64,000 bases of DNA from positions 868,001 through 932,000 of the forward strand of contig OZ237753.1 of the NCBI GenBank assembly GCA_965178125.1, given 5' to 3'. Below are positions 6,853 to 63,599 of this stretch, piece after piece (position 1 is the first letter of the stretch; each line of letters starts with the position of its first letter). The position numbers were made by a program, and so were the translations under genes. Below the pieces are notes generated by a model. The model was not told the origin of the DNA. It worked only from the letters and a program-made list of their open reading frames with translations, and made no database searches. This DNA is from Bilabrum cf. latius (taxonomy: Eukaryota).

Positions 6853-9800
6853 ATGCGGACGTGCATAGGCGTTCTCGCTGCCATTGCGAGCGTTGTGGTC
6901 TCGATTGAGCTTCCCGCTACGACGAGCTTTTCCCTGAGTTCGTCGCGAGGATCCATTCTCATTGGTACAGTTCGTGACTCCTCTAGTTCTGATGCGTCCT
7001 ATTCCATCCAGTCTGGTGGCTCGTTCGGGTGAGTATTTGCAGCAACAGCCTGCGAGGTCGCACGCGGTCGCACCGTTCGATCGGTTCGGCACAACTATGT
7101 CCACTAATCAGACATTCTTGTAATTGTTTTGTGCGTACGTTCGTGTTCGCAGATCCGACAGGAGCTTCGCCATAGACGAGATCTCAGGCCGCGTGATCCT
7201 GACGGGCGGAACTTTCGAGGCTGCCAGCCACACTCTCGTGGTCCGGGGCACTGAGCCCGACGGAGCCTTCGGTGAGACAGACGTAACCATCAGCTTCTCA
7301 GATCTGGGCCAATCGTGTCCCATCGATCACGTGAGCATCGGCACGAGCGGGGCCTCGTGCGCAACTTCCGCAAATGGCCAATTTTGGTGCTGGGGAAGCT
7401 GCCACCCCGACACGTGCGGGTACTCCGGCGCAGCCGAGACCACAGCTGCGTCCCTCCGAGATGCAGACAACCGGATCGGCCTGGCTGCCGCCCTGCAGCC
7501 GATGCCCTTCGCCCCCACCGCTGCCGAGGGAAGGGTCGTGGAGGTGCTGGGGCTCGCGGGAGAAAGCACCGCCCAGCAGACCCAGTGCCTCAGGACCGAG
7601 CTGGGGAACATCAGGTGCTGGGGAAACGCAGACTATACACCGTACAACAACATCAACAACAACATCATCGCTAACCCCGGGGACGCCCCTGTGCAGCGGG
7701 GCCTGGGCCCCGTGTCTGTGGGGCTCGCCAACGTGCCTGCCCAGCGGACCGCCGTGGCCCTGTACGCGGGCGTGAACCACTTCTGTGCCGTGCTAGACCA
7801 GGTGATCGCCGGTCGATCCAACCTGGAGTGCTGGGGCAGTCGTACGCTGTTCGAGTCCGACTCGGCCATCGACAGCACCGCGGGTGCGTCTCCCTTCTCT
7901 CTCGGGGGTGAGATCGTGGACCTCGGGGGAAGGACCGTCAAGTCCACACCACACGCGGTGGGACTGTCTCGCCACACTGGTTGCGCGCTGACGACCGATG
8001 ATGAGGTGTATTGCTTCGGCCGCGACATCCTGGACTCGACTCGGGTGATTAGCTAGGTTGAGATCGGGATATCCATGGCGAGCTCCTTTGTGCCTGGAAT
8101 GATCGGAGCCAACACCCGGGCGGTGTGCGTGCTTCTAGTCGACTCAAGCGACAACCCCATCTCAGCCTGCTTCGGAACGATCGTGCATCACGGCACTGCC
8201 TTCGGGTCGAGTGCAGCATCTCCCCCATATCAAACAACATAGCGTAGTCTGGGGAAAATCACAAGCTGGTCAACTCTTAGCACTGTGGCAATATCGAATA
8301 TTCAGGGCGCACCAGTATCCTATGCTGTTGTGCAAGGTGGAGTCTGCATCGCGTTCAAGGACAGTCCTCGCCGAAACGGGCCAAGGATCCAGTGCGCCCG
8401 TCATGGGCTGGAGGGCGACTCCTTCGGGGATCCGGCTGATCGGCGGACCTTCCACGTGTTTCCAAAGCTCCGCAACGGATGGAGAGAGATATATACCGAA
8501 AAGTAGGCCGGAGTTTAGGTGACAACCTCTACTACACAGACCGTGCGGTCCATCTACGGCAAAGGGTGCGCGGTGTGCGCCATCGTCGACGGGCTTACCC
8601 CCGGCAGCACTGGCGACGTGCGGTGCTTCGGTTGCGACGGTGAGGGCTACACACTCTTCGGCAACAGCGCACGGGGCACGCTTGGGTATGGCACGGATCT
8701 GACAGGGCCCGTGGGCTCGTCTGACTTCAGCGGCAACGTAGTCGCTGGGTACGCTGCGACAGCTCGGACTCACTCTTTCGCTGGGTCTCGGTGTAGCACG
8801 AACACCGCAAGCATGCTCGAGTTCACGAGTCCGACGGTACGTCAAGAGATCTCTATCGAAGAAGGTCCCGCTGGCAGGACAGTGGTGCAGGCAGCTGCCA
8901 CTCCCAGTGCTCCGGGTGCCACTGTGTACTACTGGCTGGATGCTGCCTTCTCCGACTCGAGCAAGTTTACGTGCGACCCGATGACCGGCGAGGTCACCAT
9001 CAACGACGAGACTGACCTTGAGTCTCTTTCCGAGGATGAGCGCACGTCCTAGCTGGGTCTGCTTGCGTTCTAGTCTGGCCTCGATGAGCAGTTCATGGGG
9101 TTCGTCCGGTTCTCGGTCCAGATTACTGACGCAGTCGAACCCATCGAGTTCTCCACTCCGAGCCAGGCAGTTGCCCAGGCCCTTGCTTACGACGGCGTGT
9201 TTGAGTACACGATCGAGGACCCGCTCGCTGTGCTGCCCAACCCAAGCGGCTCTGGCATCCGAGTGACCTCTGGGGTCCAGGCATCCGCTAGTGGCAGTGG
9301 TATTGACTCTCTGGGAGTGCAGACCGTGGTAAGGTCCGCGATCAAGCCCGGCGCCACCTTGCTCGATGCCTCTGATGTAACTGTTTCGATCGGCACCTCC
9401 AGCTCAGAAGGCATCGTGCTCGTGGTCGACCGCGAAGACCTTTCACCTGGCGAGTACGGCATCCACGTGCAGCTGGTGGGACTCGACGACGCGGGCTAGG
9501 TGGTCCCAGGGTCCGAGCAGCCGATCGTGGTGTTCATCGTGTTCAGCGTGTCTTGCGGCACGGGCGAGCGACTGACCCAGACCGGCACATGCGCCGTGTG
9601 CGCCCCCGGCACGTTTTCTGCTGCAGGTGCCACCGAATGCACCCCGTGCCCCGCGACTGGCTTTCAGGACGAGGAGGGACAGGGCGAGTGCAAGGTGTGC
9701 GCAGAGGAGCTGCCTGCCCAGCGATGGCTCAAGCACAGCAGTCCCGGCCAATCTACTCCGTGCCCAGTGTGCGACGAGACCGCCGTGGCAGAGGGCACTG

Positions 9801-12800
9801 ACGCCCGGTCGACGTGCGTGTGTCCATCCGATTCGTACGAGAAGAACCCGGCGGCTGGCAGGACAGGCACGGAGTTGCAGTGCGCCGAGATCCCCGTGAT
9901 TGCAGCCGTCGGAGACAGCACGGAGAACCTGGTGGAGCACTCGCTGGGTGCACCGCAGGGCCAGTCCCGCGGTCTGCCGTCCGACGCCAGTCCCATGACG
10001 TTCACCGCCGCTCGTCTGGATGCAGCTGCGACCTCGCCCCGGTTCCGTCTGGTTGCTCTGGACACGCCAGCGACGTCGATCGGATTCGGGCTCGCGTCAG
10101 CGGCCGGCGAGTCGGGCAGCAGCAGTCAGGATGCTTCTTCTAGCACGGCGCTGGTGGACGTGTTCGAGTCGACCAACAAGGCGCTCGCATTCTGGGACTA
10201 CGAGGCCTTCGTGGCCGCCACTGGCGGGCCTGCCGCAGCCACAGTGCGCGTGGTGCTCGATGACGGAATCAGCGGGTCCCCGTGCGCTGCTGGGCAGGAG
10301 CTGAGCTCTGCATGTGCCGCAAGTCCCGCAAGCTCTGACCTGACCGTTTCCATCACGGACATCCTCGACCAGCCCCACATCAAGCTCGCGGGCAGTGTGC
10401 TCGTCATCACCGAGAACCAGCTGGGTATCACCGCAGCAGGCGATGCCAGCCAGTGGCCAGAGGCACCCCGCACTAACGCTGTGGGTGAGCTCGGATCTGC
10501 TCTGGTGGCAGCAGGCGTGCAGGACCCCAAGAACGGTGAGACTGTGTCTGTAGTGTGCACCGACAGCGAGGACTCAGTCATCGCTGCGTTTGTGTCCACT
10601 GACCTGAAGGCCACTAGTGCCGTGAACTTCGAGTCCATGGCGGGCAAGAGCGGAGCCACCAGAGAGGGATCCAGCGTGTTCTTCGACGGGCAGTGCATCG
10701 CTGAAAGGAAGAGCGGCGAGTGCCCGCCCGGAATGCCTGTGTTCATCTGCCAGTCGATTATCGTGGACATCGACAGCGACGTGGTGCCGTTCAGGTTCCA
10801 GATCAGGGACGCACCCGATGCACCTGTGGAGGTGGGCTCTGGATTCGACGAGATGACCGTCCGGGAGCATGCACCTGCTGGCACTGGAGTCGGAGGTGCT
10901 TCATTCAGCGTGTTTGACGAGGATGAAGGGGCCAAGCTCAAATGCAGCGTGGAGGGTGCAGCTGCTTCGCTGTTCAAGGTATCGCCGGTTTTGGCCACCG
11001 CGGACGCAGACGGCTTCGTGGACAAGCAGAACATCCAGTCCGGGTCCAGTATCTCCAGCGCAATGTGGATGCTCAAGTCGACTGCAGAGCTCGACCACGA
11101 GAGCGAGGCGCTGGACGAGGACGGGCGCATCACCGTGCAGGTCGTGTGCGAGGACGAGACGGGCCTCAGCGTGTAGATGGAGGCGAGGACCGTGTGGGTG
11201 CAGGACGTCAACGAGAGACCCGTCGCTCTGGGCTTCATGGGAGATGGTGGAACGAGCGTTTCAGTGGACGAAAACGCTCCGGCAGGGACCGAGGTGGGCG
11301 TGTTCGAGGCAATGGACCCTGATGACGGCGAAGCAGGAACTCTGACCATGCGGCTAGAGGGTGCAGATGCGTCGAGCTTCAAGATCGAGATGCAGGACGG
11401 AGGCAGTGCGTCCAACGAGGGCGAGCTGGTGACCGGGGATAATTATTACATAGGAATGACCGTCATGGTACGGGAGGGGAATTCATTCATAACATTACGA
11501 AACAACGCGGCAGAAGGATCGGTCTGGATTGTGAGAGAGTTTTACGAGAATAGGCTAGGGAAGTATCTTCGGCTGCAAGATGCATTTGGACGCGAAACAT
11601 ATGGGCTGATCGGATATACATGGCATGGCGAGTTTCTGTACGACCTTGTCATCCCAGCAATGGGCCAGCAGCTGGGCCCCGGCACCACCCGCCGGGCCAG
11701 CATCAAAGTAGCAGACGGAGCCTAGTTGGACCACGAGGCCAAGAGCACGTACACGTTCGAGATCGTGGTGGACGATGAAACCGAAGAGGGACTCACCGGT
11801 GGCCGCAGGCTCACTGCCGATGGCAAGCCCAGGCGCCTCCTCGACACGCGTACCCAGGTGACCATCAGTGTGAACGACATCAACGAGGCGCCAGTGTTCT
11901 CCACCTCGCCGAGCACCAGCTATGAAGTCAACGAGAACACAGCTCCAGGCACTGAGCTGGCAGGAGACTCCCAGGTGGCCATTGACCAGGACGAGGGCGA
12001 CTCTGTGACCTACAGCCTCGTGAACAGCGCTGCAGCCTCCTTCTTCGCCATCCATCCCACGACGGGGCAGCTGCGACTGGCTGCCGGGGATGCACTCGAT
12101 TTCGAGGACAGCAGCACACCGAACGTGTTCGACTTCACCATCAGGGCAACGGACTCCGCCGGACTGATTGACACCCGTGACGTGCAGGTCAGCCTGCTCG
12201 ATGTCCAGGAGAGACCCTCCATCCAGGCCACTGGTGGGGCGCCATTCGAGGAGAACACCGCCCCTGTGACTCTGGCCGCCATCAGCTTCAGCGACCCCGA
12301 TGCCGCCGATGCCGGACTCTCTCGTTCCGACCTGACCATCGACTGCTCCGCGAGTGGCACGGCTGTCAGCGTGTCGCTTGCTGCTGGCGCCCTGCAGCTG
12401 CAGCTGGACGAGCCCTTGGACTTCGAGACGTTCGTGGATGCAACCTGCACCGTGACCATTACCGACACGGCTGGAAATATCGCTTCCACCGAAGTAGAAC
12501 TGACCGTGCAGGATGCACCCGAGGCCCCGGTGCTGTCCGAGGAGGTGTACAGCTACTCGGTGGATGAGAATGCAGACCTCGGCGATCCGATCCTGGCCAG
12601 TGGAACTGTGATCGCGGCCACGGATGAGGACGCGGGCCAGTAGGTACAACTGCGGTTCTCCATCACTGGTAGGAACACCTGGAAGGTGTACGTGAACCCC
12701 TCGACCGGCGCACTGATCTACTGTGGGCGCGGCGAGAACTACGAGTCCTTCCCTGTGGGCCAGGAGTACCTCGAGTACACCCTGCACGTCACCGACACGA

Positions 12801-15800
12801 GCGGGCTGACGGACACCGCAGTGCTGAGGATCCACATCAACGACCTCCCTGAGGCACCGAAGCTGGTGAGTGCCTCCACCCTGTCGCAGGTCCACCGGCA
12901 TATAGCCAAGGACGCCGCCCCTCAGTCGAAGGTCACCGGCCCCGCGCTGGTGGTCAGGGACGAGGATCGCGCCGACGACACGTTCTACTTTGAGGTGACT
13001 GGGTGCACGGGCGAGGGCTGCGAGGCGTTTGGGTTCTCCCCCGAGACCGACCCGAAGCTTCGCCTGATCGACCCCTCCCTGCTGGATGCAACCGTGGGGG
13101 CCTACGAGGTGACGGTCACGGTGCGTGCCAGAGACCACCCCAACGCCGCCGAGGGACTCTTCACAGAGGAGGGCCTGCTGCGAGTCATCGTCACGTGCGC
13201 CGAGGTCGCATGCCCCGGTGGCCAGGCAGCCATCGGGACCTGCGGGCCCAACAGCTCGCCGCAATGCGTCGATCTGGACCAGACGGGCCCTGCCGTCAGC
13301 GGTGACGAGGAGAACAACTTTGAGGTCAGCTTCCGAGGGAGCGCCGGCAGCACCAGCGCGAGTGCGAATCTGGAGGTGGTGCCTCAGGCGGCGGGCCTGG
13401 GCGAGAGCGAGGACACTCAGACCAGCAGGGACGACGCATGCGGGGCACAAGTGAGCCTCACGTGGGCCGTGGAGGCAACGGGAGCGCAGGTCACCAGCCC
13501 CGCTGCTCAGCTTGATGCAATCCGGTTCTTCCGTGTGACAGGCAGCGCCTCGTCCTTTGCAGATGAGGAGCCCGCGAGGGCCGTGGTAGGGTTGAACGGG
13601 GCCAATGGTGGTGAGACCGTCATCATCAGCACGCCAAATCTGGCCCTCGGCGAGGCCGGCACTGTAACAGTGGATGAGATCCTCGTGTCGCCCGGCTGCA
13701 TCGACTCGCAGGCCAACCCGAGCGGGCTGCTGTCCCTGCCCGAGACGTGCTTTGTGCCCGTGCGCCCGCTGTCCACCGGCGAGGAGCTGGCCATCGAGGC
13801 AGTCTCTGTGCCCACTCGCTGCCATTGCAACATCTGTGGCGTGAGCGAGGGCCAGCAGGCCAGCACCTACCGGAACCCGGTGTGCGAAGTGGACTCGCTG
13901 GCTGCTTACTCTCTCGCGACCTCGTCTTGGTGCCCCTCCTGCACCGTGTGCTCCGGGGAGCAGTTTGAGACCAGGGACTGCCGGGCTCAGGATGCAGCGG
14001 ACGAGGCACACGGCACGGTCGCGGCTCAGTTCATGGACCGGGAGTGCGCCAACTGCGTACAGTGCGAGTACGATGAGTACGAGTACTCGTCATGCGGCAA
14101 TGACGATGGTAGAACGGACCGCGTGTGCTCGAACAAGATTGTGGACGGCTCGAACAAGAGACGCAAGGACGGCAGCACTGGCTCTAGGGGCCGGCTGTAC
14201 AACGCGCACAGCGATGGTCTCCGCAACGAGCGGTGCGAGTCGGAGATGGTGTTCCGGCTGTCGGACAGGGGCCAGGACGAGGGCGCAGTGGGGTGGTTCA
14301 AGATCGACGAGGTTCGCAGGGGTGACGTGCGGGAGGTGTACGCGTTCCAGGCAGCCAACCACAACGAGTTCACAATCATCATGGGGCGGTTTAAGAACGC
14401 CGACCTGCGATGGAGGCTCAGCTACCTGGGGATCGACCGCCGCCGTGAGAGCATGCCCTCCGAGCGCCCGTCCAACGATGACCCAAGGTGGAGGCAGACC
14501 AACATGATTGAGCAGCGCAGCGCGTGCGTGGAGACTTTCGCGCCGGCCACCATCCTGGAGGGCCCCCGCCGGTCCGTGAGGGGCACTGGATCCAGGGGCC
14601 GCATCGAGAATGCGTTCGACCTGGAGCAGAGGAGCGAAGAGTGCCACGTCATTGCTGACGTCCGGTACGTGTGCTCCGATCGTGGGGCCGGGTCCGAATG
14701 CGCCGAGGAGCAGACCTTCCTGATTCGGGAGACCCGCCGCGGCGACGTGCGCCTGGCCCAGACGGTCACTCTGCCCAAGGACACCGAGGCGAGGCTGGAC
14801 TTTGGAGTGCAGAAGAACGCCGACCTGCGACTGACGCTCTTCCATAGTGACGGCAGCGGTGGCTGGCGCCGCACCAACGATATCGACGTGCGCAACAGGT
14901 GCGCCCGCACCTTCGAAGAGGCCGTGGTGGAAGAGAGGCAGGACTCGGACAGGCGCACGTGGCGCAGAGGCAGGCTGTTCGGAGCATTCGGCGAGAAACG
15001 CGCTGCCAACGGAGACGTGATCGTGCATGTGGACTACTTCGACCTGGATGGACCCGCTACGGAGCGGTTCGTGATCGAGGAGACCCGCCGAGGCGATGTG
15101 CAGTTCGCGAGGCAGGTCACCATCCAGAACGGCGAGCGTGTGACTCTCAACCTGGGCCAGTTCAAGAACGCCGACATTCGGTTCGGGCTGTTCTACGAGA
15201 ACAGGCAGGACCGCGGTGACTGGCGCAAGGGCCACGAGATCGACATCCGCACGGAGAAGGTGGAGACCTTCGAGGCAGCGGTGGCGCTGGGCCCCTCGAG
15301 CAACACCACGAGGCGCACGGGTCCTCGGGGCCGCATCGAGGGGCTCTTCGGAGAGATGCGCGCCCCGGGGTGCAACGTGCACGTCAACGTACGCTACTGG
15401 GACGAGCACAGGTGTGACGAGGACCAGGTGGAGACCTTCCTGATTCGCGAGACTCGCCGCGGCGATGTGCGGTTTGCCAAGACCGTGACTATCCGCAACG
15501 GATAGACCGTGGACCTGGACCTGGGCTCATTCAAGAACGCCGACCTTCGTTTCACTCTGTACCATGAGCGTGAGCCCGGACACTGGACCGAATCCAACGA
15601 GATCGACATCCGCACGCACTGCGTGGATCTGTACAACGACGCAGACGGCAGCGATGACGCCGACACGATCCTGGGCAGGGGCGGCCGCTATGACCAGTAC
15701 ACCGGCTCGCGGGGCCGCATCATGACCGTGTGGGACTCCAAGAGGGCCGGGTCACAGTCTGGCCTCGTCACCGTGGACGCAGTGACCGGGGCCCAGACCC

Positions 15801-40843: not shown

Positions 40844-40890
40844 CCTAGACACCTGACTATATGATAGACTATGCTGATATGAAGGTTTCT

Positions 40891-45737: not shown

Positions 45738-46520
45738 TCATCTGCCGCCAGCAACACTTGATGCACTACCGCCTCCCTTCCCTTTCCCTTTCCCCTTTCC
45801 TTTCCCCTTCCCACCCCCTGCGCCATCCTTCCTGCGGTACACTGGGTCGGGATCCAGCTCCCTATCGAATCCCTTCTTCCTGAACATGTACTGCCTGTAT
45901 CTCCTCCGCTTCGCCACGCGGGCCATGCCTCGCGCCGCACCAGCCTGGTTGTCCTCCACCAACTGACCCTCTGTGCTGCCGAATCCCTAAAACCCGAGCG
46001 CAACCCGCATCTGATCTTCGACAGAAAGACCTTCCGGGAGCACGAGCTGCTTTGCCCCGACTCCCATGGCCTCCTTCGCGGCCGCTTCTTGCTTCTCTTT
46101 CATGCGCCGAAACGCTTCCACTCCCGTCTCTGGGGATCCCGCGGCCTTGTCTGGGGCCGATGATGCTGCCAACGCTGCCTTCGAACCGCTGTCTTCCTCG
46201 TCGCTATCGTCGTCCAAAAAACGGGGGTCTAGTGCTGGTGCAGGTGGCGCTGCCGGAGCCGATGGTAGGCTTGGAGCTACTCGGTTCCCCGTACCCCCTC
46301 TTGACTGGCTAGTGGAAGCCGCCTATGATTGTTCAAGTCTAAACTAGGCTGTTCTATGCTAGCTTTGTGCTTGAGACGGCATATCGTGACGACCTTCCAC
46401 TCTAGCACGTTTTCCGTTTCGTCCATTGCCGTCATCATCGGCAGGACGGGGTCGTTTCCCGGCTATTGCTTGTCCTGACCATCGATCTAATTTGCTACCG
46501 GGTTGCTAGCTCGAGCTCAT
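45738..46520 (-). CDS. SNRNP27: U4/U6.U5 tri-snRNP 27K-like protein, ~260 aa
   Basis: MRVALGF*GFGSTEG..VEDN...RRRYRQYMFRKKGFDRELD matches the family C-terminus; TAG at 46506, 46359, 46344, 46323, 45987; ends TGA. Confidence 0.82.
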
Positions 46521-51995: not shown

Positions 51996-54900
51996 TTAAA
52001 ACCTAAACCCTCCCGACTTGGCCTCCGGCTTGTGGAACTTGGACGCCTTGCTCGCGTTCTCGCGCATAAAGTCCCGCCGCTGCCTCTGCTTGGCCCGCTG
52101 CCGCCTTACCGCCAGCGCCCGCCCAGGCGCGGCCGTGTCCACCGTGGCCCGCACGGGCACTGGCCTCTCGTACTCGGGCTGCGAGCCCACCACGTCAAAG
52201 ACCCACCGCGAGGAGGGCGAGTCCACCACCAGACGGCCCCTGCACGACTTGCCGTACTCGCGGGGGGCGAACGTCACGATCACCTGCGCGGGCTCCGTGC
52301 CCACCTCTCCCCCGCCCTCGGGAGGCGCAGGGGGCAGAGTGCCCCTCCCGGGATCCACCCTGAGCTCGGCTGCAGCGTCCAGAGTGAAGTACGCCCGGAA
52401 AGGCTCGGGCTCGCTGCCCTCCCCGAATATGTCGATCGCCACGCGCTCCACCGCGCCCACATCTGCCTGAATCTCAAGCACGTCGTCCGGCGCGGGGTCC
52501 GTGGCTCGCACGGAGAAATTGAACCGCCACTGGCCCCCAGTGGACTTGGTGATCACCAGCTCGGCGGGGACATGCATGGGCTTGCGGGGGCGGAAATCCA
52601 TGACGAGCCGGATCGGGTCGTCCGAATCCCTGAGCTTGCCTCCCCTGTTAGCCACCACCACGTCCAGCTGCCTCGCCAGCGCGAGCGTGGCCTCCTCCGG
52701 CATGTCGGCGGGGGGCTCCACTTGCACGTCGAAGGTGCACCGCAGCACCTCGCTCTGCGTGAGACCCGGCAGCGGCAGCGCCACCTCCTCCACCTTGCGG
52801 GACCGAGCCTTGCACGCCAGTTTGACCACCCGCTTGGAGGGGGGTGCCTCGGGGCTGCCCACCAGGTCGTACCTCCACTCCATCCCGCGGGAGGGCAGGC
52901 GCACCACCATGCGCCCGCTGTACTGCCGGATCCGCTGCGGGCTGAAGCCAACCGGCAGCTGCACCTGCGCCCCCGGCCCCAGGCGGATCGTAGAGGGACG
53001 CAGGAGCTGGAACACGGTGCTGGGCCCGTCTAGCGAGCTGCCAGGAACACCTCCTCTGCCCCTTTGGCCAGCCCCCGCCCCTGCTCTTCCGATGCTGGGC
53101 AGTGTTCCACCTCCCGTCGCCTGCTCGTCCCCACTGACCTCCACCGCCACTTCGATCCGCACGGGCTCGTCGAACGGGTTCTAAAAGGGGACCGAGGTGC
53201 TCGAGCTCAGCCCGGCAACCGCACGCAGCTGCACCGTCCGCACCTCAGTCTCGGGCGCCTCCCCCTCCCCCTGCAGCCGGAACTCCCACTTGCCAAGCCG
53301 GTCCGAGTTGAACACCAGCAGGCCGTTCTCCGCCCGCCCCACGCTTGAGGGGTTGTAGGTCACGCGCACGTCCTGTGACGAGAGGGGAGCCAGCTCCACG
53401 CCCGCCGGATCCACCGTGAAGTTGCGCTCGTTGTCCAGCGAGGCAGCCGCGAGGGCGGCATACCGCGTGGGGTTGTCCAGAGTCACCAGACAGGACGCGG
53501 AGCTACCCACCGGGGCGCGGAGCACAGGCACCTCGACTGGTGGAGCGGGCGCCGCCTCCATCTCGAGCTTGTACCACAGCTGCCCCGCCCGCTCGCCGGT
53601 GAACGTGACGGCCCCCTGCTCCTTGCCGGCCTCCAAGGGGCAGTACAGCAGCTCGTACACCTTGTCTTGTTCCCTGGGAGCGAGCGCCAGCACGGGATCA
53701 CCCACGAGCCCCTCGCCCTCCAGCGCCACCTGGAACTCCGCCGGCTCGTCCAGCGGGTTGTCGATCTGCAGGCGCACCCTAGCAGCCTTGCGCACGGTGG
53801 CCCGCAGCTGAAGGGTGTCCTCGGGCGCTGGGGGCTTCACCTCGGCCTCCACGGCCCACCAGCGGAACCGGCCCGAGCGGTCGTCCACGAACCGAACGGT
53901 CCCGCGGTACAGACCTCCGGCCAGGGGCGCAAAGGTGAGCTCGTATCCGCCCTCCGCGGGCGTGCTCTTGCCCGTCCTGGGGTCGGTGTCCCCCGCCCTT
54001 AGGGCCAGAGAGGGGTCCCCGCTGGCGCCGATGAGGTCCGATTCCACCCTCAGGGTGGCAGGGGCCGCACTGAAGCCAGTCACCGGGAGCTCCTTGACGA
54101 CAGTCTCCCGCGCGCTGCACTCGATCTTGAGCGTGCCCTCGGCCGCGGGGGCCTCCCCTACCCCAGTCAGCACGTACTCGATGTGCGGCATCTTGGGGCG
54201 CGTCTGGTTCCGCACGATGAGGCGCGCCCTCTCGACCGTGGTCCAGTCCGGCTTGAACTTGAGCGGGATGCTTGCCGTCTCACCCGCGTTGACGAGGAAG
54301 GTGGACGGCACCTCGAAGTGGTGCCCCCGCGGCGACAGCTGCCTGCCTTCCCTCGGACTCTTGGCGTCGCTGCCGAAGAGCTGGCTGGCCTCCTCGCCCA
54401 TGCTCTCCTCCCTCACCTCCAGCACCCGCAGCTCGCACCGCATCAGCCACTGTTCCCTGGACTGGTTCACCACAGGCAGGGGCTGCTCTACACTGGCTCC
54501 CGCGGGACACCTCAGGGTCAGCTCCCTCTTGAGCGGGGGCGCTCGCAGGGCGACATCCAGGTCGTACACCCGCGTCTCGCGGCGGGATGCCAGCACCAGC
54601 CGAGCGGGGTACTTGCCGGGGGCTTTCGGCAGGATGGACACGCGCGCCACGCCCTCCCAGGCGGCCGCCTCTCCGCCCCGCTGCGCCGCGGCCGCCGCAT
54701 CATCGTCCTCGTCCTCCGCCGCCAACACGGCCCCCGTTTCGGTGGCGCCTAGGCGCTCCGCTCTGTCCTCTGCATCCCGCTGCTCCTTGCGCGTGGCCAT
54801 CCGAGAGACAACGGCGAAGTCCTGCCATCCGGGTGAGATGGCCCCGTCCGCGCGGTAGAAGGGCGAATCGATAGAGATCTGGTAGGTCCACGGCCGCAGC

Positions 54901-57900
54901 AGGTACCGCGCCACCCGCCTCACCTTGGCTCCCGCCCGGGTGAGCGCCTCGCTGGGACGGCCCCCTCCCGTGCTGCCCAGCTGCATCGAGCTCAGGGAAC
55001 CCACCGTGAGCACGCTCCCACCCTGCAGCAGCTGAGACGGGCGCTCCCTCAGCCCGGCCCCGGGACCCCCCGCCTCGTCCCCCTGAAGCTCCCCCCCCAC
55101 GGAGGGGTCAAGCAGGGAGGGGTCGATCTGCCGGAGCCTACCCACCAGCGCGTCCAGCCGCTGCCTCTCCTTTACCAGCCTCTTCTCTTGTTCCCTGGCC
55201 TGCTCCTCTCTCTCTTCCTTGGGCAGCCGACGCCCGGCCTCCTGCAGGGCTTCCTTCAGCTGCTGGCTGGCCCCCACCACGCGGAGGGACAGGTGCTTCG
55301 CCAGCTCCTCCTCGTCCACGGCAGCACTGGAGCTCGAGTCGTCCGTCAGCACAGCCTTGAGGGTGCCCGAGGAATCGGGCAGGCCCGCCGTCGCGCGGAC
55401 CTCGTACACCACCTCGCCCAGCGTCTCGTCAACGAGTTCCACCGCGCAGGCGTGCGGGCCCGCCACGAATGGGAGGAACTGCACGCCTAGGACCCTGGAT
55501 CGACCCTTGCCCAGGTGCAGGACCTGCGAAGGGGTCCTCAGGTGGAAGGGCGCGGGCCAGTACCCGTCCGCGGTCAGGGGCCCTGCCTCGTTCCTGTGTC
55601 TCGCCCACTCGCCCACCCGGAACATCCGACCCTCCTCCCTTCGCAGCTCGGCCTGCGCCTGCGCCGCCCGTGCAGAGGAACCGGGCCTGCTGCGCCTCTG
55701 GATGCCGGCCACGCGCGCAGGCGAAGTGGCTCGCCCCACGCTGCCGCTGCCGTGTGACAGCTCGGATCCCGGACGGGTGCTACCGGGCCCAGCACCGGCC
55801 GCCCCTGCGCCGGAAGCGGCAGCACGCCTAGCCTTGGGATCCACACCTGCCCCTGCTTCTGCCCCTGTTCCCTGCTCGTCCTCGTCGTAGGTGGGGACGT
55901 TCCTTCCCTCGGGTGCCGAAGGCGGAATGGGGATGAGCCTGACGCGGAACTTGCCCTCCCTGTCGAAGGGATTGGTCACCTGCAGCTCGTGCTCCACGGG
56001 CTTGTACATGGGCGTCTGCAGGCGCACCACAGCGGCCGGCGGCCGCTCCAGCACCCTAGTCTGCAGCGCGAACACGAGTGTCATGGCCTGCACCGGCCCG
56101 TTGCGCTGCGAGCGGAGCGTGAGACGTGCTCGCGCGGGCCGGGACAGCCTGGCAGTCGCCACCACCTGGATGCTGCGCTTCTGCCCAGGGGGAAGCGTGA
56201 CTCGGTTGGTGGTGGCCTCGAAGACGCCCTCGTCTCCCGGCTCTGCCGCCACTGTGACCTCGTAAATGACTGCCTTGTTGGAGGGGTTGCTCAGCTCAAT
56301 GCTGCGCATGGCCTTCTCCCCCATGCGAGCGTCGAAACGGATGGTTTGCCTGGGGACCAGCTGCGGGATCGTGCGGTAGAGGTGCAGGAGAGCCAGCAGG
56401 CACAGTCTCGTGTGCCCCTCGCCCATCCTAGCCCGATCCCCTAGCGAATGGGCCAGCACGCCCCCCGTGTCGAAGATGGCAGTCTCCAAAGGAGCCGCCT
56501 CCGGGGGCAGCACCCCATCCAGATCCAGGCCGGTCGGCGCTCCATTCGCCACCCCGCCGCCATCCACCACACCCCCCCGTTCCCCGGTCTTGCCCTCGCC
56601 CGCCCCATCCGCCCCACTCGCCGCCCTCGACCCCCCGCCGCGACTGCCGTGCTCCACCGACATCGCATCGTCCGCTCCGCCCCCGAACTCGGCCGCCGCC
56701 GCCGCCGCCGCCGCCGCCCTGATCATGGCCGCCTCCTGCTCCTTCCTCTCCTCCCTCGCCCTCTCCCTCGCATCTTGCACCCGCCGGAGCCCCACCCACT
56801 CGCCCTCGACCCCCTCGGGGGCGGGGCCCAGGAAGAGCTCCCGCAGAGGCACGGGGGGTCTCACGTCTAGCAGCTCCAGCGCGTCATAGATCGCGCCCCA
56901 TGCCAGCTCCAAGTCCTCTGGACCCTCAGGACAGGCCTTGAAGCCCACCAGGGGCTGCCCCTCCTCACCCAGGAAGGGGCAGTGGCTCCGCAGGATGCCA
57001 GCCACCACCGTACCATCCCTCAGGTCACGGTGCGGGTCCACCACCCGCCGGGGCATGTGCGTGAACACCTGGTTGTGGTGGTACTGCGCCCACCGCAGCA
57101 GAACGAGCTCGGACACCGCCATGACGTTCGAAGGGGCGAGCAGCCTGTCCGGTGCGAAGGCCCGCCGGGTGGTCCGCGCCACTAGCTGCTGCACCTCGGT
57201 GGATGCCTCTTTCAAGGGATCCCCCTCCTGCTCCTCCTGGGCCCCCGCCCCGCCCCGCCTCTTCCTCCTCTCGTCCACGATCCGGGCGCGCTCCTCGTCC
57301 TGCACCCGCCGCGCGTCCTCGATGGCAGCCATAGCCCGCTGGCACGCCGCATCTGGCTGCATGCCGGGCACCTGGGCGAGGCTCTGCAGCGTGACCCTCT
57401 GCAGCACGAACACGCGCACGATCTGCATGCAGGTCCACGCCCACGCGCTCGTGCTCACCTCGGGGTACTCTTGCCGCAGGGACTTCCTCTTCCTCGCCTC
57501 TGCTGTGAGAGACCTGTACTCCAGCATGGGGGCGCCCAGGCCCCGCCCGTCGATGCCCCCGGGGGCCATGCGAGCCCTCACGAAGTCGTCTCGCGGGAGC
57601 AGGTCCTCGGGCCGGATGTGGTGCAGGAGCGCGCCGTGGGCCTTGAGGAAGGTCAGCGCCTTCAGGGACTGCTGGTACAGCACCAGCGTGCGGGCCTTGC
57701 CCCCGCGGGGCAGCTGATCCGGCGCACTAACCCCGCCGCCTGCGCCGCCCCGGCCCGCCCCAGTGGACCCGCTGGACCGAGCCCTTCCGCGACTGCGGCT
57801 GCGGTTCCGGCGGCCGGGGCTCCCCGGGCCGCTGCTGGCCACGGACCCGCCTCCAGCCACGTCTGCCCCCCCCTCCCCCCGCCTGCCCCTCCCAGGCAGC

Positions 57901-60900
57901 TTGCTCCCGGACAGAGCCTCCACCAAGTCCCAGATGGGTGCCCCGGCCGTCTCGGTGATGCTGCGGGGGAAGTACTCCAGCGGTGACTTGAGCAGCACGG
58001 CATTGAGCCACAGCCGGAGCAGCTCCGTCTCCTCCTGGTCCACGTGCCCCGGCATGCCCATGTCTGGAGGCAGCAGCTGGCCGTCCGGTCCGCTGGGCAA
58101 GGAACCCACGTAGCTCTTGCTGCCCCCCTTCTTGGAGGGGTCCTCACCGGAGGCTCTCCTACCCTTGGAGCCGCCTCCGCGGGCACCGGCCCCGCCAGAG
58201 GAGCCCGCGCTTCCACGTCCCGACCGACCCGCGCCACCGCCATTTCCACCAGCTGCTCGGCCCTTGGCTGGCCGCAGCAGGGGCCGCAGGAACGTGAGCG
58301 CCTGCTTGCGGTCCGTCCCTTGCGGAACCGCGCACGGCGCCGCACCAGGTGCCGCCATGAGCTCCAGCTCCCCCGCCTTGGCCTTGAGGTAGGGCACCGT
58401 GCTGAGGAGGCTCGAGTCCGTCACGCCAGAGACCGGCATGGGGTACCTGTTGCCCCTGTCGTCGTAGAAATCGATCGTGGCCGTGAAGGCCATGGGCTTC
58501 CTTGACTTGAAGGTGACCATGACCGGCAGAGCGGGCCGGCTGAGGCTGATGGTGGTGCCCTCGGGGAAGTAGATCTGCAGGGGGATCTTGGTCGGGTGCC
58601 TGTCCGTGGGCACCTTCCAACGGAGCTGGAGGTTGTCGAACCCGTGTCCCTCGATCAAAAAGGAGGACCAGGACATGCAGCCCAGAGGCACGGGCGGCAA
58701 CGTGGTCTCTGCCCTATCAAAGGCCAGCTGTGGCGCGACCCCCTGCCCCTCCATCTCCAGCACCACCACGCTCTCCCCGGACGGGACGGGCGGCGCGAAC
58801 CCGTCCATCAGCGCGTCCACCACCTGCCTCGCGTAGGACTCCCCCCCGAGATCCGCTGGCACGGGGGGCAGCTCGACCTCCTCGTCATCCGCGGCCCCGC
58901 TCTCCACGTGTGCCAGCAGCAGCCTCAGCGCGCCCTCTGCCTCGTCCCTCCTGCGCCTGGCCTCTGGCACGCTGTCGGCCAGGAACAGAGGCACTGCGGC
59001 CACGTACTGCTGAAAGCCCTGGGGCGCGAACAGCACGCCCAAGTCGCACGACTCGCTCGGCACCAGGTCGCCCTCCCCTGCCTCCACGCGGAAGGCCCGC
59101 CCCCCGGGGTCGCCCGCCTGGGCCGCCGCCTCTAGCCAAAACTGGCCCGCCGCGAACGCAACGGTGCCCGTCTCCTGCCGCGACTCGACCGTGACGTGCT
59201 GGCGGTAGGGCGCGCGCCGGGTCGGGTCCGGGTGGACGACCTTGAGCTAAAAGTTGCAGAGGGTCGGCTTGAGCACCAGCCTCGGGGGCACCGCCACTCC
59301 GGTGACCGTCCGGGCCAGCATCACCTTCGCCTTGGAGGGAAGCATGCCGAGGGCGCGCAGCGGCAGCATGAACTGCAGCCGCTGCGCCTCGTACGGCCTG
59401 TACTCGAGCTGCAGCCGCAGCACCTTGCCCGGTGCCATGCGGATCCTGAACTTGCGGGGACCCATGTCCGCCTTGGATGCTCGCTCACGCTCGAGGCCGT
59501 CCCCGGCGCCACGCTCGCCACCCTCCTCCCCTACCTCATCGCCGCCGTCCTCCCCATCCCCATCTTCGTCTGCCTTGATCGCGCTCGCATCCACCCCCGA
59601 TTCGACGACTTCCTCGTCAACCATGGAGGCGCCCTCTGCCACGAACACGCTGCCTTCCTCCTGCAGCCCAGCGCCCAGGCTCTCCTGGCTGCCCTCCTCG
59701 CCCACGCCGCCCCTCCCCGGCCGGGAGCTCCTCGGCAGCCTCGGCGGCAGCACGGCCATCTGGTCGAAGCTCCTCAGATTCACCACCACCTCCGCGGGGA
59801 TGCGCCCCGAGTTCTCCAGGGTCAGCGGCAGCCTCGCCCTGGAGCCCACGGACACCCGCCCGAAATCGAAGCTCGGCTCCAGGACCCGCACCTCGGGCGA
59901 CACCGCCTCTGCCTCCACCCCGATGGTCAGGTCGGCTCCCGCCCGAACCCGGATGCACACCTTGTCCTCGGCTGCTCGGAACGTCTTCTCTTTGCTGGAC
60001 ACGAGCCGCACCATGACCTGCATCTCGTCTCCAGGCCCGATCCGGCCCGAGGACGGGACCAGAGAGACGCCCTCCGGCGCCTCGTCCAGCTTCCACACCG
60101 CCGCGGTGGCCCCCTGGTTGGCCAGCATCACGGCAGTCTCGCGCTGCACGCCCACGGACACGGCCCCGAACTCCACCCTGTCCGCAGACGCGATCACGTC
60201 GGGCTCCTCGAGGTCCGCCTGCAGCTGCACCCGCACGGGCGGCTCCGAAGTGGACCCGCCCCTTACCAGCAGCGACGCGTGGGCCTGCACGGGCAGACCG
60301 ACCTACGGGCGAAACTTGACCCTCGCGATCGCGGTCTGCCCTGGCTGGATGCTGCCCGAGGGCGGGTCGATGACAAAGGCCGTCTCCTTCGGCTTGGGCC
60401 TCCACACGTACTCGGCCACGGCGTTGCCAGGGTTGTGAAGCTCGATGTCCTCGTGCAGGCCAAAGTCGGTGCTGCCCTCCGGAAAGCGAAAGACGATGTG
60501 ACGCTTGGAGGGCACCACCTCTACCGGCTTGACCACGGCGGTGCACATGAACCGGAACACGTGCTTCCCGTTGATCGTGTACAAAATCTCCCGCTTCATC
60601 TCAACCGCCTCGCGCTGGGGCACAAACACCAGGTCGAAGCCTGCCTTGCGGCCGGTGGGCACCACCTGAGAGGCCGGGAATGACTCTGCAAACTCCTCCG
60701 CGCCCTTGGGCATCACCAGAGACGCCAGCACCACCTGGGCCAGGTCGTTCGCCACCGCGAAGCACTTGGCCGTCCTGCTCCTCACGTTGACCTCGCCAAA
60801 GTCCACCACCCGAGGCCCCGCCTAGATCCCGGCCAGCAGCTCGGGGCCCAGCTTGAGACCGCAGTCGGTGGCCTCCGCCTGCGTGGTGGGCTGCGGCTTG

Positions 60901-63599
60901 AACTTGGCCACGATCAGCTTGTTCTGGTCGAACGTGTGCCGCACCGCACCCGGGCGCACGATGGGCTTCCCGTCCGTCCCGATCGGCCGCTGCATCCAGA
61001 GGTCGTCCTCGGCGGTGGGCACGTCCAGCCGCGGGCCCTCCATGTCGTCCTTCCCGTCCTCCATGCCCAGAGAGGTCATGTCGTCCCAGCGAGCCAGACG
61101 ACGGGCCTTGTGCGCGGCGCGCGTCTCCCGGGCCGTGGACCGCTTGCGGATGATCGAGTTGTACTTGTCCTTGTGCCCATGCTTGGCAGCGAGGTCGCCC
61201 AGCGTGTACGTGTAGGCCTGGTCCGTGGTCACCGACCCGGCGTGCACCGTGTCATCTTCCTCGGCCAGGCGCTCCCACGGCAAGGGCTTGACTCGCTTGC
61301 TGCCACCGAGGCCCGCCGTGGTCCCGGCCTGGCCACCGGCCGCCGTTCCTCCCCCAGCCAGCCCCCCACCGGCCCCCATGCGCGCCATGGTGGCCGCACC
61401 CATGGCAGCAGCCGTGGCAGCCGTCACGTCCTCGTCCTGGATCGAGGTCTCGGTCGGCAGCACCGTGCCCTTGTACCCTGGGATCGCCTTGAGCGCCCTC
61501 TGCGCGCTCTCCCTGTCCCCGGGCACCACCTGCAGCTGAGGCTTGTGGTCGGACAGCGGCAGACCGGGGCCCCTGGATCGTCTGAGCAGCCCGTCCGGCC
61601 CCGGCGGCGGCTGCTTGACCGCGTGACCCTCCAGCCTCATCTCCACGTCGACGAGGCCCTGGGCCCCCACTATGTGCATCCTGCGGCGGTGCACGCCAAG
61701 GCTGTGCGGGAGGAATGTCACGAGCACCTTCTGCGACCCCAGCGGCTGCACGCTGCCCTTCCGCGGCTTGATCCCGTAGTGCGCGGGGGCCTCTGCCCTC
61801 CACGGCATGGGCACTGACTCGCTGGGGTTCCTCAGGCGCACCCACACGTCCCTCCTCGCACCCACAGCGCAGGGCCCGAAAAACACGTCTCGGTGGCTGA
61901 CCTCCAGCGAGGGCCGTACCAGCATGCCGCGCACAGGCAGGACAACCCTCTGCTTGGTGGCCGCGCTCAGCAGGAGGATCTCCTGGGTCACGGCCTCCTG
62001 CAGCGGAGGGGGCACGAACCGCGCCAGCTCGTCTGGGAGTGCATCTGATCCGCTCGACGCGCCTGGGGCCAGCCCTCCCACCGGCACAGCTGCCCCCATG
62101 TCCTCGCCAGGACCCCCTTCCCCGCCCTTGCCTTCCTGCTCCCCGGCAGTCGCCGCCCCCGTCGCGCCTTTGCCTCCTCCTCCTCCTCCTCCGCCCCCGG
62201 ACACGAGCGTTCTTCCCATCGAGGCCGCCCGCTGGCTGAGGCCCAGCACCTTCCGCGCCTGCGCCTTGAACGGGACCGGCTTCTTCCGCTCCACCGGCCG
62301 GAAGGTGACTAGCAGCTCCTGCTGGCCCAGCGAGGGAACAGTGGCCTCATCCGGTGTGACGATCACGTCCCTCTAGCCAGGACCCAGAGACACCGCGCCA
62401 CCGGAGCCGGACCCACCCGCGCCAGCACCCGCACCCGCGCCTGCGCCTGCCCCGCCGTCGCCCCCCTGCACCAGCCCCTCTGCGGGGTCAAACACCTCTG
62501 CCTCCCCCGGCTTTCTCCTCCTAAACTGCTTGTCCACGGCAACTCGGAAAGAGGCCTCCTCGGGTCCGTTGTTCACCACGAGCAGCTTGAGCGTCCGCTC
62601 CCTACCCACCATGACCGGCTCGAAGGCGACCTCGTCCACCTGCCCCTTGCCCTCGGGCCACACCACTTCTAGAGAGTGCGCCAGGACACTGGCGCTCACA
62701 TCCACTGCGATGGGAGGCGCCCTGGATCCCTCCACCTCCAGCGTGGCAAGCGCCCTGAACACGTCCACTCGGTCTGCGTCCAAAGTGACCACCACCTCGT
62801 CCGTCGGCGCGCTGCTCCTAACCCTCCGCTGCTGCGCGGGAGTCACTGCCTCGTTGAGGTTCAGGCCCGCCGCCACGGGGTTGGCGGGGAGCTCCCCCTC
62901 GCTGGGGGAGAAGCTCAGGGGCAGCTCGCTGTCCCACCGGAGCCGCCAGCGAGACCCCGCCTGGCCGAGGCTGGCGATGCGCAGCCTGCGCTGCACCTTT
63001 CTGCCCACAGTCACATGCCCGAAATCCACCGTCGGGGATACCGGCTCGATCCGGGGGCAGGGCGCCAGGCCCAGCACAGGCACTCGAACCTCAAGGTCGC
63101 CGGACACGACCCGCACCTCGTCGCGGACGTCACGGCCATCCTTGTCCACCTCGATGAGCACCTCTACTGTCTGTTCTAGCCCAGGGGCGATGCCAGCGGT
63201 CGGCTTGTAGTTGGCCCGGATGTTAGGGTGTGTCGGGGGCACCACAGCGATGCGTCGCCGTCGGCTTCCAGAATTTTGAAGGCGAATCTCGGAGCGAAAT
63301 GACAGGCCCGGACGAATGCCGTGAAACACAATAGCTGCCGGAAATACGTGCAGCGGCCCAGCTTTGGCGGTTTCCCGTGTGGCGGCAGTCAGCACGTCAA
63401 TGTCGCCGATAGAGGGTGCGCCGTCCTGCAGTACCTATCTTGGAAGCAGCCGTGACCTCCGCACCTAACTGCTGTCATCTCCAGTGACACTTGACTGACT
63501 ATGAGCCTTCCCGCGCCCTGCCGAACTTTGGACGCTCCCTGAACTATTCGGATAGCGAGATCCGGCACCTGAGCCCGAGCTTGCCCTGGATTGGGACAT
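51996..63599 (-). CDS. CFAP47: Cilia- and flagella-associated protein 47 (multiple ASH/Ig-like domains + calponin-homology domain), apparently intronless, ~3,867 aa
   Basis: Repeated xDFGxV...NxG ASH motifs; CH domain ELVLLRWAQYH...DLRDGTV; LHLYRTIPQLVPRQTIRF...IELSNPS; C-terminal FAPREYGK; TAG at 63465, 63435, 62373, 60822, 60303, 59247, 53181; ends TAA. Confidence 0.88.

What the first reader, a model, noticed from the sequence alone, without database searches (positions are those of the whole stretch)
6853..63599. Non-standard nuclear genetic code: UAG is a sense codon (Gln) across the whole window
Seen in sequence: about 60-65 in-frame TAGs lie in some 17 genes on both strands, and the same frame and protein family continue straight after each one. 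The cadherin-like gene has 12 over 10.5 kb, CFAP47 has 7 over 11.6 kb, ARMC2 has 7, SNRNP27 has 5, G-beta has 4, and PREP and SNIP1 have 3 each. None of these frames contains an internal TAA/TGA or a frameshift. Established: these are conserved housekeeping or flagellar genes, so simultaneous pseudogenisation is implausible. Inference: UAG has been reassigned, and conserved positions point to Gln. The organism is a GC-rich flagellate unlike typical AT-rich ciliates, so this may be an unreported independent reassignment.
Basis: partly seen in the sequence, partly recalled or inferred. Interest (0 to 1): 0.97.

Follow-up and report, generated by a model that had tools for sequence, protein, structure and literature searches.

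The report
UAG read as glutamine, nuclear code
In this GC-rich, intron-poor eukaryote the stop codon UAG is used inside ordinary genes as a glutamine codon while UAA and UGA still end genes, a rare kind of genetic-code change already known from a few other protists.

Summary
Reading TAG as sense merges ORFs into frames of 3,879, 3,527, 1,603 and 1,321 codons; reading TAA as sense adds nothing. Across 14 well-supported coding stretches (14,292 codons) there are 47 in-frame TAG, 0 TAA and 0 TGA, against 138, 52 and 443 in the two other frames.

At the three TAG sites in strongly conserved columns, homologues have Gln: 86 of 86 (G-beta), 59 of 62 and 53 of 62 (prolyl oligopeptidase).

A metagenome relative (L001, 94% aa, 80% nt) pairs TAG with CAG or CAA at 5 of 6 sites, in both directions, and ends its G-beta with TAA.

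Contigs from three runs in two studies lack GT..AG introns yet match the window exactly across at least 12 TAGs. So the TAGs are not spliced out, edited or assembly errors.

All 13 credible genes end in TGA (9) or TAA (4).

Best reading: UAG→Gln with UAA and UGA as stops (NCBI table 15 type). The kind is known from Iotanema and three ciliates. The lineage could not be placed, no matching report was found, and the tRNA and eRF1 could not be examined.

The parts
7124..17704 (+). Cadherin-like giant surface protein gene. The ORF is 3,526 codons and ends in TGA. It has 12 in-frame TAG, at 8054, 8240, 8504, 8516, 9050, 9071, 9497, 11174, 11723, 12641, 15503 and 16715.
   Evidence: Searches give the ORF and the TAG positions. 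Pfam finds Cadherin (1.8e-26) and Ephrin_rec_like. There is no in-frame TAA or TGA.
51996..63632 (-). CFAP47-like flagellar protein gene. The ORF is 3,878 codons and ends in TAA. It has 7 in-frame TAG; the first base of each codon on the minus strand is at 63467, 63437, 62375, 60824, 60305, 59249 and 53183.
   Evidence: Searches give the ORF and positions. Pfam finds CFAP47 (8.2e-27), ASH, HYDIN/CFA65 Ig and Ig_CFAP65_4th. A search with residues 900-1500 found 1,385 homologues at E<=0.001, and the three TAG columns in that stretch are variable.
32778..35306 (-). Prolyl oligopeptidase gene, 842 codons, ending in TGA. It has 3 in-frame TAG, at 35177, 35153 and 34991.
   Evidence: Pfam finds Peptidase_S9_N and Peptidase_S9. 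The best PDB match has E=1.8e-152. Among 62 homologues the TAG columns read E46/D8 and others, Q53/E7, and Q59/H2. Contigs of runs X5, X6 and X7 cover 32711-35304 with 0 differences.
42629..43873 (-). G-protein beta subunit gene. Exon 1 is 43873-43272, the intron is 43271-43140 (132 nt, GT..AG), and exon 2 is 43139-42629, ending in TGA. It has 4 in-frame TAG, at 43822, 43627, 43591 and 43123.
   Evidence: PDB alignments are. The TAG at 43627 sits in the SASQDG column, which is Q in 86 of 86 homologues. The intron is removed in contigs of X5, X6 and X7 and present in X1, and the TAGs are unchanged.
45738..46520 (-). SNRNP27-like gene, 260 codons, ending in TGA. It has 5 in-frame TAG, at 46508, 46361, 46346, 46325 and 45989.
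   Evidence: Pfam finds SNRNP27 (2.3e-17). Only one TAG aligns to human SNRNP27, where the human residue is Ala at a variable site.
46640..47629 (-). SNIP1-like FHA-domain gene, 329 codons, ending in TGA. It has 3 in-frame TAG, at 47362, 47152 and 47140.
   Evidence: PDB gives SNIP1 at 1.8e-46, and Pfam finds FHA. An X5 contig covers 46685-47619 with 0 differences. The TAG columns are variable or unaligned.
27117..31775 (-). It is 1,552 codons from the first ATG and ends in TAA. It has 7 in-frame TAG, at 31424, 31250, 30557, 30470, 30188, 28820 and 28391.
   Evidence: Searches give the ORF and counts. Pfam finds no family, so the identity is unverified.
23221..26940 (+). ORF of 1,239 codons with no family match, ending in TGA. 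It has 4 in-frame TAG, at 24148, 24790, 25402 and 25693.
37215..39341 (+). ORF of 708 codons with no family match, ending in TGA. It has 2 in-frame TAG, at 37260 and 38064.
   Evidence: An X5 contig covers 37209-38506 with 0 differences.
1491..6157 (+). Two tandem fimbrin/plastin genes that serve as TAG-free controls. The first has its EF-hand exon at 1491-1754, its CH domains run to 3522, and it ends in TAA. The second is 4469-6157 and ends in TGA.
   Evidence: Pfam finds four CH domains in each and EF-hand domains in the first exon. There are 0 TAG in 1,078 codons.
44239..45522 (+). Pyrimidine 5'-nucleotidase (UMPH-1) gene with two 91-nt GT..AG introns (44347-44437 and 44572-44662). It ends in TGA and has no TAG in its last exon.
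   Evidence: Pfam finds UMPH-1 (1.4e-60). The spliced joints appear in X5, X6 and X7.
35464..37242 (-). GST-like gene ending in TAA. Its only TAG (36588) lies inside a 102-nt intron (36556-36657).
   Evidence: Pfam hits to GST_N and GST_C are weak. The joint 36555->36658 is seen in X5.

Best explanation
The organism uses a nuclear genetic code in which UAG is a glutamine codon, while UAA and UGA remain the termination codons. This is the NCBI table 15 type.

Shown here:
- TAG sits in frame in ordinary conserved genes at about 3.3 per 1,000 codons, which is about 8.5% of all Gln codons.
- TAG is kept in the spliced message.
- TAG aligns with Gln wherever the column is conserved.
- TAG interchanges with CAG and CAA between this genome and a diverged relative that also uses in-frame TAG.

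Inferred, not shown: decoding is by a tRNA-Gln with anticodon CUA. That tRNA would be one base change away from tRNA-Gln(CUG), and it pairs with UAG but not UAA. It would be accompanied by a change in eRF1 that weakens recognition of the G in UAG. Both were proposed for Iotanema spirale (PMC5304391, passages read).
For: ORFs. The longest frames are 2,022, 954 and 845 codons under the standard code. With TAG as sense they are 3,879, 3,527, 1,603 and 1,321. With TAA as sense they are unchanged.

Codon counts. In 14 coding stretches (14,292 codons) there are 47 in-frame TAG, 0 TAA and 0 TGA. The other two frames hold 138, 52 and 443. Gln codons are CAG 441, CAA 62 and TAG 47.

Amino acid. I examined 13 of the 47 TAG sites against homologues. 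Three lie in columns where one residue reaches 85% or more, and all three are Gln:
- G-beta SASQDG: 86 of 86.
- PREP position 106: 59 of 62.
- PREP position 52: 53 of 62.

Relative. L001 is 94% identical in amino acids and 80% (481 of 600) in nucleotides over G-beta exon 1. At the 6 codons where either sequence has TAG, the window/L001 pairs are TAG/CAG once, TAG/CAA three times, CAG/TAG twice and TAG/CTA once. L001 has an intron at the same place and ends its gene with TAA where the window has TGA. A relative's CFAP47 ORF fragment (P0358) stops exactly before a window CAG codon.

Message. Contigs of X5, X6 and X7 come from 2 studies. They lack the introns 43140-43271, 44347-44437 and 44572-44662, and X5 also lacks 36556-36657. 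The DNA run X1 keeps all of these. The table of differing letters is empty. The listed pieces cover 12 TAGs (PREP 3, G-beta 4, SNIP1-like 3, ORF 37215-39341 2) with 0 differences.

Stops. The 13 credible genes end in TGA (9) or TAA (4). PREP and G-beta end where their PDB homologues end.
Against: - No tRNA with anticodon CUA was seen, and no eRF1. The window holds neither and no whole genome is held, so the mechanism rests on analogy.
- Ten of the 13 examined TAG sites lie in variable or unaligned columns and say nothing. At PREP position 44 homologues mostly have Glu (46 of 62).
- At two sites a relative has Leu where the window has TAG (L001 codon 18, CTA; P0358 at CFAP47 residue 1110). Gln and Leu codons are one base apart, so this is compatible with Gln but is not support for it.
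- The runs are contigs, not reads. Contigs drop rare variants, so partial editing cannot be excluded.
- The run table lists no run on record as RNA, and it labels X5 'probably DNA'. That these contigs come from RNA is my inference from the three or four GT..AG joints.
- X1-X4 are probably the source of the window and are not independent.
- Whether UAG also terminates some genes cannot be told from 13 genes.
Confidence: 0.88

Rival explanations
1. UAG has a dual, context-dependent meaning. It is Gln inside genes but still terminates some genes near their 3' ends, as reported for Condylostoma, karyorelicts and UAA in Blastocrithidia.
For: Nothing in the window excludes it. Only 13 gene ends could be judged. 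In ORF 50362-51276 a TAG lies 3 codons before the TGA.
Against: All 13 credible genes end in TGA or TAA. The 7 with homology-defined C-termini end where their homologues do, or close to it. At 3.3 per 1,000 codons, in-frame TAG is not far below its off-frame rate of 4.8 per 1,000.
Confidence: 0.07
2. Both UAG and UAA are Gln codons (table 6, as in many ciliates, Hexamita and ulvophytes, and as reported for Amoeboaphelidium). UAA would simply be rare because the genome is GC-rich.
For: UAA and UAG usually change meaning together (PMC11687900 introduction). In this genome A-ending codons are rare: CAA is 62 against 441 CAG.
Against: There are 0 in-frame TAA in 14,292 codons. If TAA:TAG followed CAA:CAG (0.14), about 6.6 would be expected (my inference). 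Four of 13 genes end in TAA, and L001 ends its G-beta with TAA exactly at the conserved C-terminus. Reading TAA as sense does not lengthen ORFs.
Confidence: 0.03
3. UAG codes for an amino acid other than Gln, such as Glu, Leu, Lys, Ser or pyrrolysine.
For: PREP position 44 is mostly Glu in homologues (46 of 62). G-beta position 20 is Lys or Arg (67 of 86). Two sites are Leu in relatives.
Against: All three strongly conserved columns are Gln (86 of 86, 59 of 62, 53 of 62). Five of 6 TAG codon pairs with L001 are CAG or CAA.
Confidence: 0.015
4. There is no code change. The TAGs would be assembly errors, lie in unrecognised introns, be edited in the RNA, or mark pseudogenes.
For: None was found. 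In principle contigs can hide minority variants.
Against: Four run assemblies from 3 studies carry the same letters. Spliced contigs run straight through 12 TAGs with 0 differences and 0 gaps. A diverged relative has in-frame TAG at other positions of the same gene. Pseudogenes would also accumulate TGA and TAA, and none is seen in 14,292 codons.
Confidence: 0.005

Closest known systems
Iotanema spirale (Fornicata): UAG→Gln with UAA kept as stop (Pánek et al. 2017, PMC5304391; passages read; also PMC9161772)
   Same: Only UAG is reassigned, it is reassigned to Gln, the organism is a non-ciliate flagellate, and UAA still terminates.
   Different: In Iotanema, UAA is described as the dominant stop. 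Here TGA ends 9 of 13 genes and the DNA is 55-70% G+C. Iotanema was known from a transcriptome only. The best named EukProt or MMETSP hits to this window's proteins are only 41-52% identical, so this is not that organism or a near relative held in those sets.
Ciliates Hartmannula sinica, Trochilia petrani and Protocruzia tuzeti: UAG→Gln only (McGowan et al. 2024, PMC11687900; abstract, introduction and two discussion passages read)
   Same: The codon table is the same (NCBI table 15 type), and UAG is widely used as sense.
   Different: Those authors find UAA to be the firmly preferred stop. Here the genome is GC-rich, TGA is preferred, the contig is at least 64 kb with many genes, and introns are 91-132 nt GT..AG. 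From my own recall, not tested here, such features are unlike ciliate macronuclear genomes.
UAR→Gln codes (NCBI table 6): Tetrahymena, Oxytricha, Hexamita, Streblomastix, ulvophytes, and as reported for Amoeboaphelidium protococcarum (PMC11687900; PMC6299283)
   Same: A stop is reassigned to Gln, presumably through a mutated tRNA-Gln.
   Different: Here UAA is not sense (0 of 14,292 codons; it ends 4 of 13 genes). The Amoeboaphelidium genomes are about 40% G+C (PMC10608142 table) against about 62% here.
UAG-only reassignment to other residues: rhizarian exLh and phyllopharyngean MAGs (Leu), Scotinosphaera (Ser) (PMC5304391; PMC11687900)
   Same: UAG is uncoupled from UAA.
   Different: The amino acid differs. 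Here the conserved columns are Gln.
Code 15 in crAss-like and other phages (PMC9523058, PMC11210395; search listings and abstract starts only)
   Same: TAG is read as Gln.
   Different: Those are bacteriophages using bacterial translation with RF1 and RF2. This is a eukaryotic nuclear genome with spliceosomal introns.

Membership tests
Nuclear code with UAG→Gln and UAA/UGA as stops (NCBI table 15 type) | In-frame UAG in conserved protein-coding genes, present in the mature message | tested here: met
   There are 47 in-frame TAG in 9 genes. Spliced contigs of X5, X6 and X7 carry 12 of them unchanged.
Nuclear code with UAG→Gln and UAA/UGA as stops (NCBI table 15 type) | UAG corresponds to Gln at conserved positions | tested here: met
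   Gln in 86 of 86, 59 of 62 and 53 of 62 homologues. Five of 6 TAG codon pairs with relative L001 are CAG or CAA.
Nuclear code with UAG→Gln and UAA/UGA as stops (NCBI table 15 type) | UAA is not used as sense and is used as a terminator | tested here: met
   0 in-frame TAA in 14,292 codons, and 4 of 13 genes end in TAA. L001's G-beta ends in TAA. This is window scale only.
Nuclear code with UAG→Gln and UAA/UGA as stops (NCBI table 15 type) | UGA is retained as a terminator | tested here: met
   0 in-frame TGA against 443 off-frame, and 9 of 13 genes end in TGA.
Nuclear code with UAG→Gln and UAA/UGA as stops (NCBI table 15 type) | UAG is no longer used to terminate genes | tested here: inconclusive
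   0 of 13 gene ends need TAG, but 13 genes are too few.
Nuclear code with UAG→Gln and UAA/UGA as stops (NCBI table 15 type) | A cognate tRNA-Gln with anticodon CUA | not testable with these tools
   There is no such tRNA in the window, and no whole genome is held.
Nuclear code with UAG→Gln and UAA/UGA as stops (NCBI table 15 type) | eRF1 N-domain changes (GTS, NIKS, YxCxxxF region) that lower UAG recognition | not testable with these tools
   eRF1 is not in the window. The motifs are taken from PMC5304391.
UAR→Gln code (NCBI table 6) | Both UAA and UAG are sense codons | tested here: not met
   TAA is never in frame, and it ends 4 genes.
Ambiguous stop/sense codes (Condylostoma, karyorelict or Blastocrithidia type) | The reassigned codon also terminates, depending on its position near the 3' end | tested here: inconclusive
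   No gene end at TAG was seen among 13. This needs genome-wide data.

The most novel reading that the evidence does not exclude
This is an independent and so far unreported origin of the UAG→Gln, UAA/UGA-stop code. It occurs in a very divergent, GC-rich flagellate lineage with no close named relative in the databases searched. At least two members about 20% apart in nucleotides share the code. UGA rather than UAA is the main terminator.

If so, it would be a UAG reassignment that arose without the AT-rich, UAA-dominated background seen in the other known UAG-only cases. It would therefore argue against simple loss of UAG under AT pressure as a necessary route.
Probability: 0.45. Interest if true: 0.8.

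Novelty: new member of a known kind. Interest (0 to 1): 0.7.

Why it matters
Nuclear codes in which UAG and UAA have different meanings are rare. The papers I read name Iotanema, three ciliates, a rhizarian, a clade of ciliate MAGs and Scotinosphaera. Each new case tests how a ribosome and a single release factor can tell UAG from UAA.

This case comes with genomic DNA and apparently transcript data, so the tRNA(CUA) and eRF1 predictions made for Iotanema become directly checkable. Its GC-rich, TGA-preferring background differs from the UAA-dominated backgrounds described for the other cases.

It also has a practical consequence. Standard gene callers truncate this organism's proteins. The database copies of its PREP and of a relative's CFAP47 are fragments cut at or near TAG. 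Any annotation made with the standard code will therefore be wrong for a large share of genes.

Tried and rejected
- **Whole genome.** None is held, so no genome-wide code inference, tRNA scan or eRF1 search was possible.
- **tRNA and RNA families in the window.** ARAGORN found only a tRNA-Ser(GGA)-like hit at 7786-7868 inside the cadherin ORF, probably false. Rfam found nothing.
- **Run table.** No RNA holder is listed. That X5-X7 derive from RNA is inferred from spliced joints only.
- **'ARMC2' label.** The label stays unverified.
- **Variable TAG columns.** SNRNP27, the SNIP1-like gene, G-beta exon 2 and CFAP47 have their TAGs in variable or unaligned columns and are uninformative about the amino acid.
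- **Placing the organism.**
  - The best named hits are 41% (PREP), about 52% (G-beta, a mix of fungi and stramenopiles) and 45% (fimbrin; Triparma, Balamuthia, Symbiodinium, dictyostelids).
  - A quick G-beta tree of 87 rows (exon 1 columns only) put the query on an end branch of 2.04, against a median of 0.15, with no supported neighbour.
- **Aphelid hypothesis.** I considered that this is the aphelid Amoeboaphelidium, an algal parasite with a reported TAG and TAA→Gln code. I rejected it because those genomes are about 40% G+C (PMC10608142), TAA is a stop here, and no named aphelid proteins appeared among the hits.
- **Iotanema or a ciliate.** Unlikely for the reasons given under Closest known systems.
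- **Literature.** Nine searches found no report of UAG→Gln in a GC-rich non-ciliate flagellate. The accession prefix of the best EukProt hit was found in no paper. The library omits most subscription journals, and supplements were closed, so a report may exist that I could not see.

Full report
**What is in the window.** The 64-kb window is GC-rich, at 0.55-0.70 per 4-kb bin. It is gene-dense on both strands.

Under the standard code the longest stop-to-stop frames are 2,022, 954 and 845 codons. With TAG read as sense they become 3,879, 3,527, 1,603 and 1,321. With TAA read as sense nothing changes. With both read as sense the gain over TAG alone is small, at 3,993 and 3,589.

The two giant frames are:
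- a cadherin-like protein (7124-17704, +, 12 TAG);
- a CFAP47-like flagellar protein (51996-63632, -, 7 TAG).

The other identified genes are:
- two tandem fimbrins;
- prolyl oligopeptidase (PREP);
- a GST-like gene;
- a G-protein beta subunit;
- pyrimidine 5'-nucleotidase (UMPH-1);
- SNRNP27;
- a SNIP1-like FHA protein.

**Is it more than chance?** I defined 14 coding stretches, each running from a plausible start or an exon boundary to the stop. They total 14,292 codons. They hold 47 in-frame TAG, 0 TAA and 0 TGA. The two other frames of the same DNA hold 138 TAG, 52 TAA and 443 TGA. So TGA and TAA are excluded from the coding frame, as stops should be. TAG occurs at 3.3 per 1,000 codons, not far below its off-frame rate.

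The 47 TAGs lie in 9 genes. Three TAGs are not coding. Two lie upstream of the fimbrin coding parts. The third (36588) is in an intron that a transcript-derived contig lacks.

**Which amino acid?** I read TAG as X, so that the query could not bias the result, and compared 13 of the 47 sites with homologues.

Three sites lie in columns where one residue reaches 85% or more, and all three are Gln:
- the SASQDG motif of G-beta, Q in 86 of 86 homologues;
- PREP position 106, Q in 59 of 62;
- PREP position 52, Q in 53 of 62.

The same sites are Q in the best PDB chains. The other ten sites are in variable or unaligned columns:
- PREP 44: E in 46 of 62.
- G-beta 20: K or R in 67 of 86.
- G-beta 97: T or N in 77 of 86.
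- The TAG in G-beta exon 2 and the examined SNRNP27, SNIP1-like and CFAP47 sites.

**A diverged relative.** A scan of metagenome contigs with G-beta exon 1 returned L001, a 2,145-bp contig. It is 94% identical in protein and 481 of 600 identical in nucleotides, with 88 synonymous codon differences. It carries an intron at the same place, 176 nt by my script's coordinates against 132 nt in the window.

At the six codons where either sequence has TAG, the window/L001 pairs are:
- TAG/CAG, at SASQDG;
- TAG/CAA, three times;
- CAG/TAG, twice;
- TAG/CTA, once, at a variable site.

So TAG behaves as a synonym of CAG and CAA in both directions, and the relative uses in-frame TAG too. L001 ends its G-beta with TAA where the window has TGA.

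In the protein libraries, close relatives appear as fragments:
- A 97%-identical PREP starts after the last TAG.
- A relative's CFAP47 is split into two ORFs, and the first stops exactly before a window CAG codon.

**Consensus error, splicing or editing?** Four run assemblies were laid on 32000-50600. X1 holds all the sampled words and is probably the source.

X5, X6 and X7 come from two other studies. Their contigs skip 43140-43271 (132 nt, GT..AG on the minus strand), 44347-44437 and 44572-44662 (91 nt each, GT..AG). In X5 they also skip 36556-36657. X1 has none of these joints.

The run table lists no run on record as RNA and calls X5 'probably DNA'. I take these contigs as transcript-derived because several canonical introns are missing at once and depth changes gene by gene.

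The table of differing letters is empty. The listed pieces run through 12 TAGs (PREP 3, G-beta 4, SNIP1-like 3, ORF 37215-39341 2) with 0 differences and no gaps. Contigs cannot exclude a minority of edited molecules.

**Stops.** The 13 credible genes end in TGA (9) or TAA (4). PREP and G-beta end where their solved homologues end.

If TAA were a rare Gln codon in the CAA:CAG proportion (62:441), about 6.6 in-frame TAA would be expected, and none is seen. This is my inference. The code is therefore UAG→Gln with UAA and UGA as stops. Whether UAG also terminates a few genes cannot be judged from 13 gene ends.

**Mechanism.** Nothing here shows it. The window has no relevant tRNA or RNA family, eRF1 is not in it, and no genome is held.

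By analogy with the argument made for Iotanema (PMC5304391, passages read), UAA remains a stop, so the decoder should be a tRNA-Gln with anticodon CUA. That is one change from CUG. eRF1 is expected to carry a change that weakens recognition of the third-position G.

**Comparison with what is known.** UAG-only→Gln is reported for Iotanema spirale, Protocruzia tuzeti, Hartmannula sinica and Trochilia petrani. UAG-only→Leu or Ser is reported for a rhizarian, a clade of ciliate MAGs and Scotinosphaera (PMC11687900; PMC5304391; PMC9161772). In those accounts UAA is the dominant or preferred stop. Here TGA is, and the DNA is GC-rich.

The organism could not be placed:
- The best named hits are 41-52% identical and come from several supergroups.
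- Its G-beta sits on a very long branch with no supported neighbour.

I rejected Amoeboaphelidium because its genomes are about 40% G+C and TAA is reported as sense there.

Nine literature searches found no matching report. The library lacks most subscription journals, and supplements were closed.

**Verdict.** This is a real non-standard nuclear code of a known kind, in a lineage for which I found no report. The claim of an unreported independent origin is plausible but not shown.

Noticed in passing
window 1491-3522 and 4469-6157 (+): Two tandem fimbrin/plastin genes with nearly identical CH-domain regions. The first has an EF-hand first exon and an intron. The second starts directly before the CH domains. 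One ends in TAA and the other in TGA.
   Followed up: partly
window 1972-3522, 4469-6157, 44665-45522: The genes with the highest third-position G+C (fimbrins 0.81-0.86) and the UMPH-1 gene have 0 TAG in 1,363 codons, where about 4.5 would be expected at the window's rate. TAG may be avoided in strongly codon-biased or highly expressed genes.
   Followed up: partly
window 17263-17593 (+): A perfect 30-nt tandem repeat, 11.0 copies at 100% identity, encodes a decapeptide repeat in the cytoplasmic tail of the cadherin-like protein.
   Followed up: yes
window about 14800-17000 (+): The C-terminal third of the cadherin-like protein holds six or seven copies of a module of about 130-150 residues. 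The module matches no Pfam family, and most copies contain an RRGDV motif (seen in the translation).
   Followed up: no
window 7786-7868 (+): ARAGORN calls a tRNA-Ser(GGA) inside the cadherin-like ORF. Rfam does not confirm it, so it is probably a false positive.
   Followed up: partly
window 36556-36657 (-): The only TAG of the GST-like gene lies in a 102-nt intron that is removed in an X5 contig. It is not a sense TAG.
   Followed up: yes
window 32554: An X5 contig lacks 27 nt here, downstream of the PREP stop codon. This is an indel difference between the sources in the 3' untranslated region.
   Followed up: no
L001 1-225 (+): The relative's contig begins with the end of another ORF that holds two in-frame TAG and ends in TGA. 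The neighbour of G-beta differs from that in the window, so gene order is not conserved. L001 is 54% G+C.
   Followed up: partly
window 42629-43873 (-): The G-beta protein is very divergent. It has an end branch of 2.04 changes per column, against a median of 0.15, in a tree of 87 sequences. The lineage is either fast-evolving or deeply isolated.
   Followed up: partly
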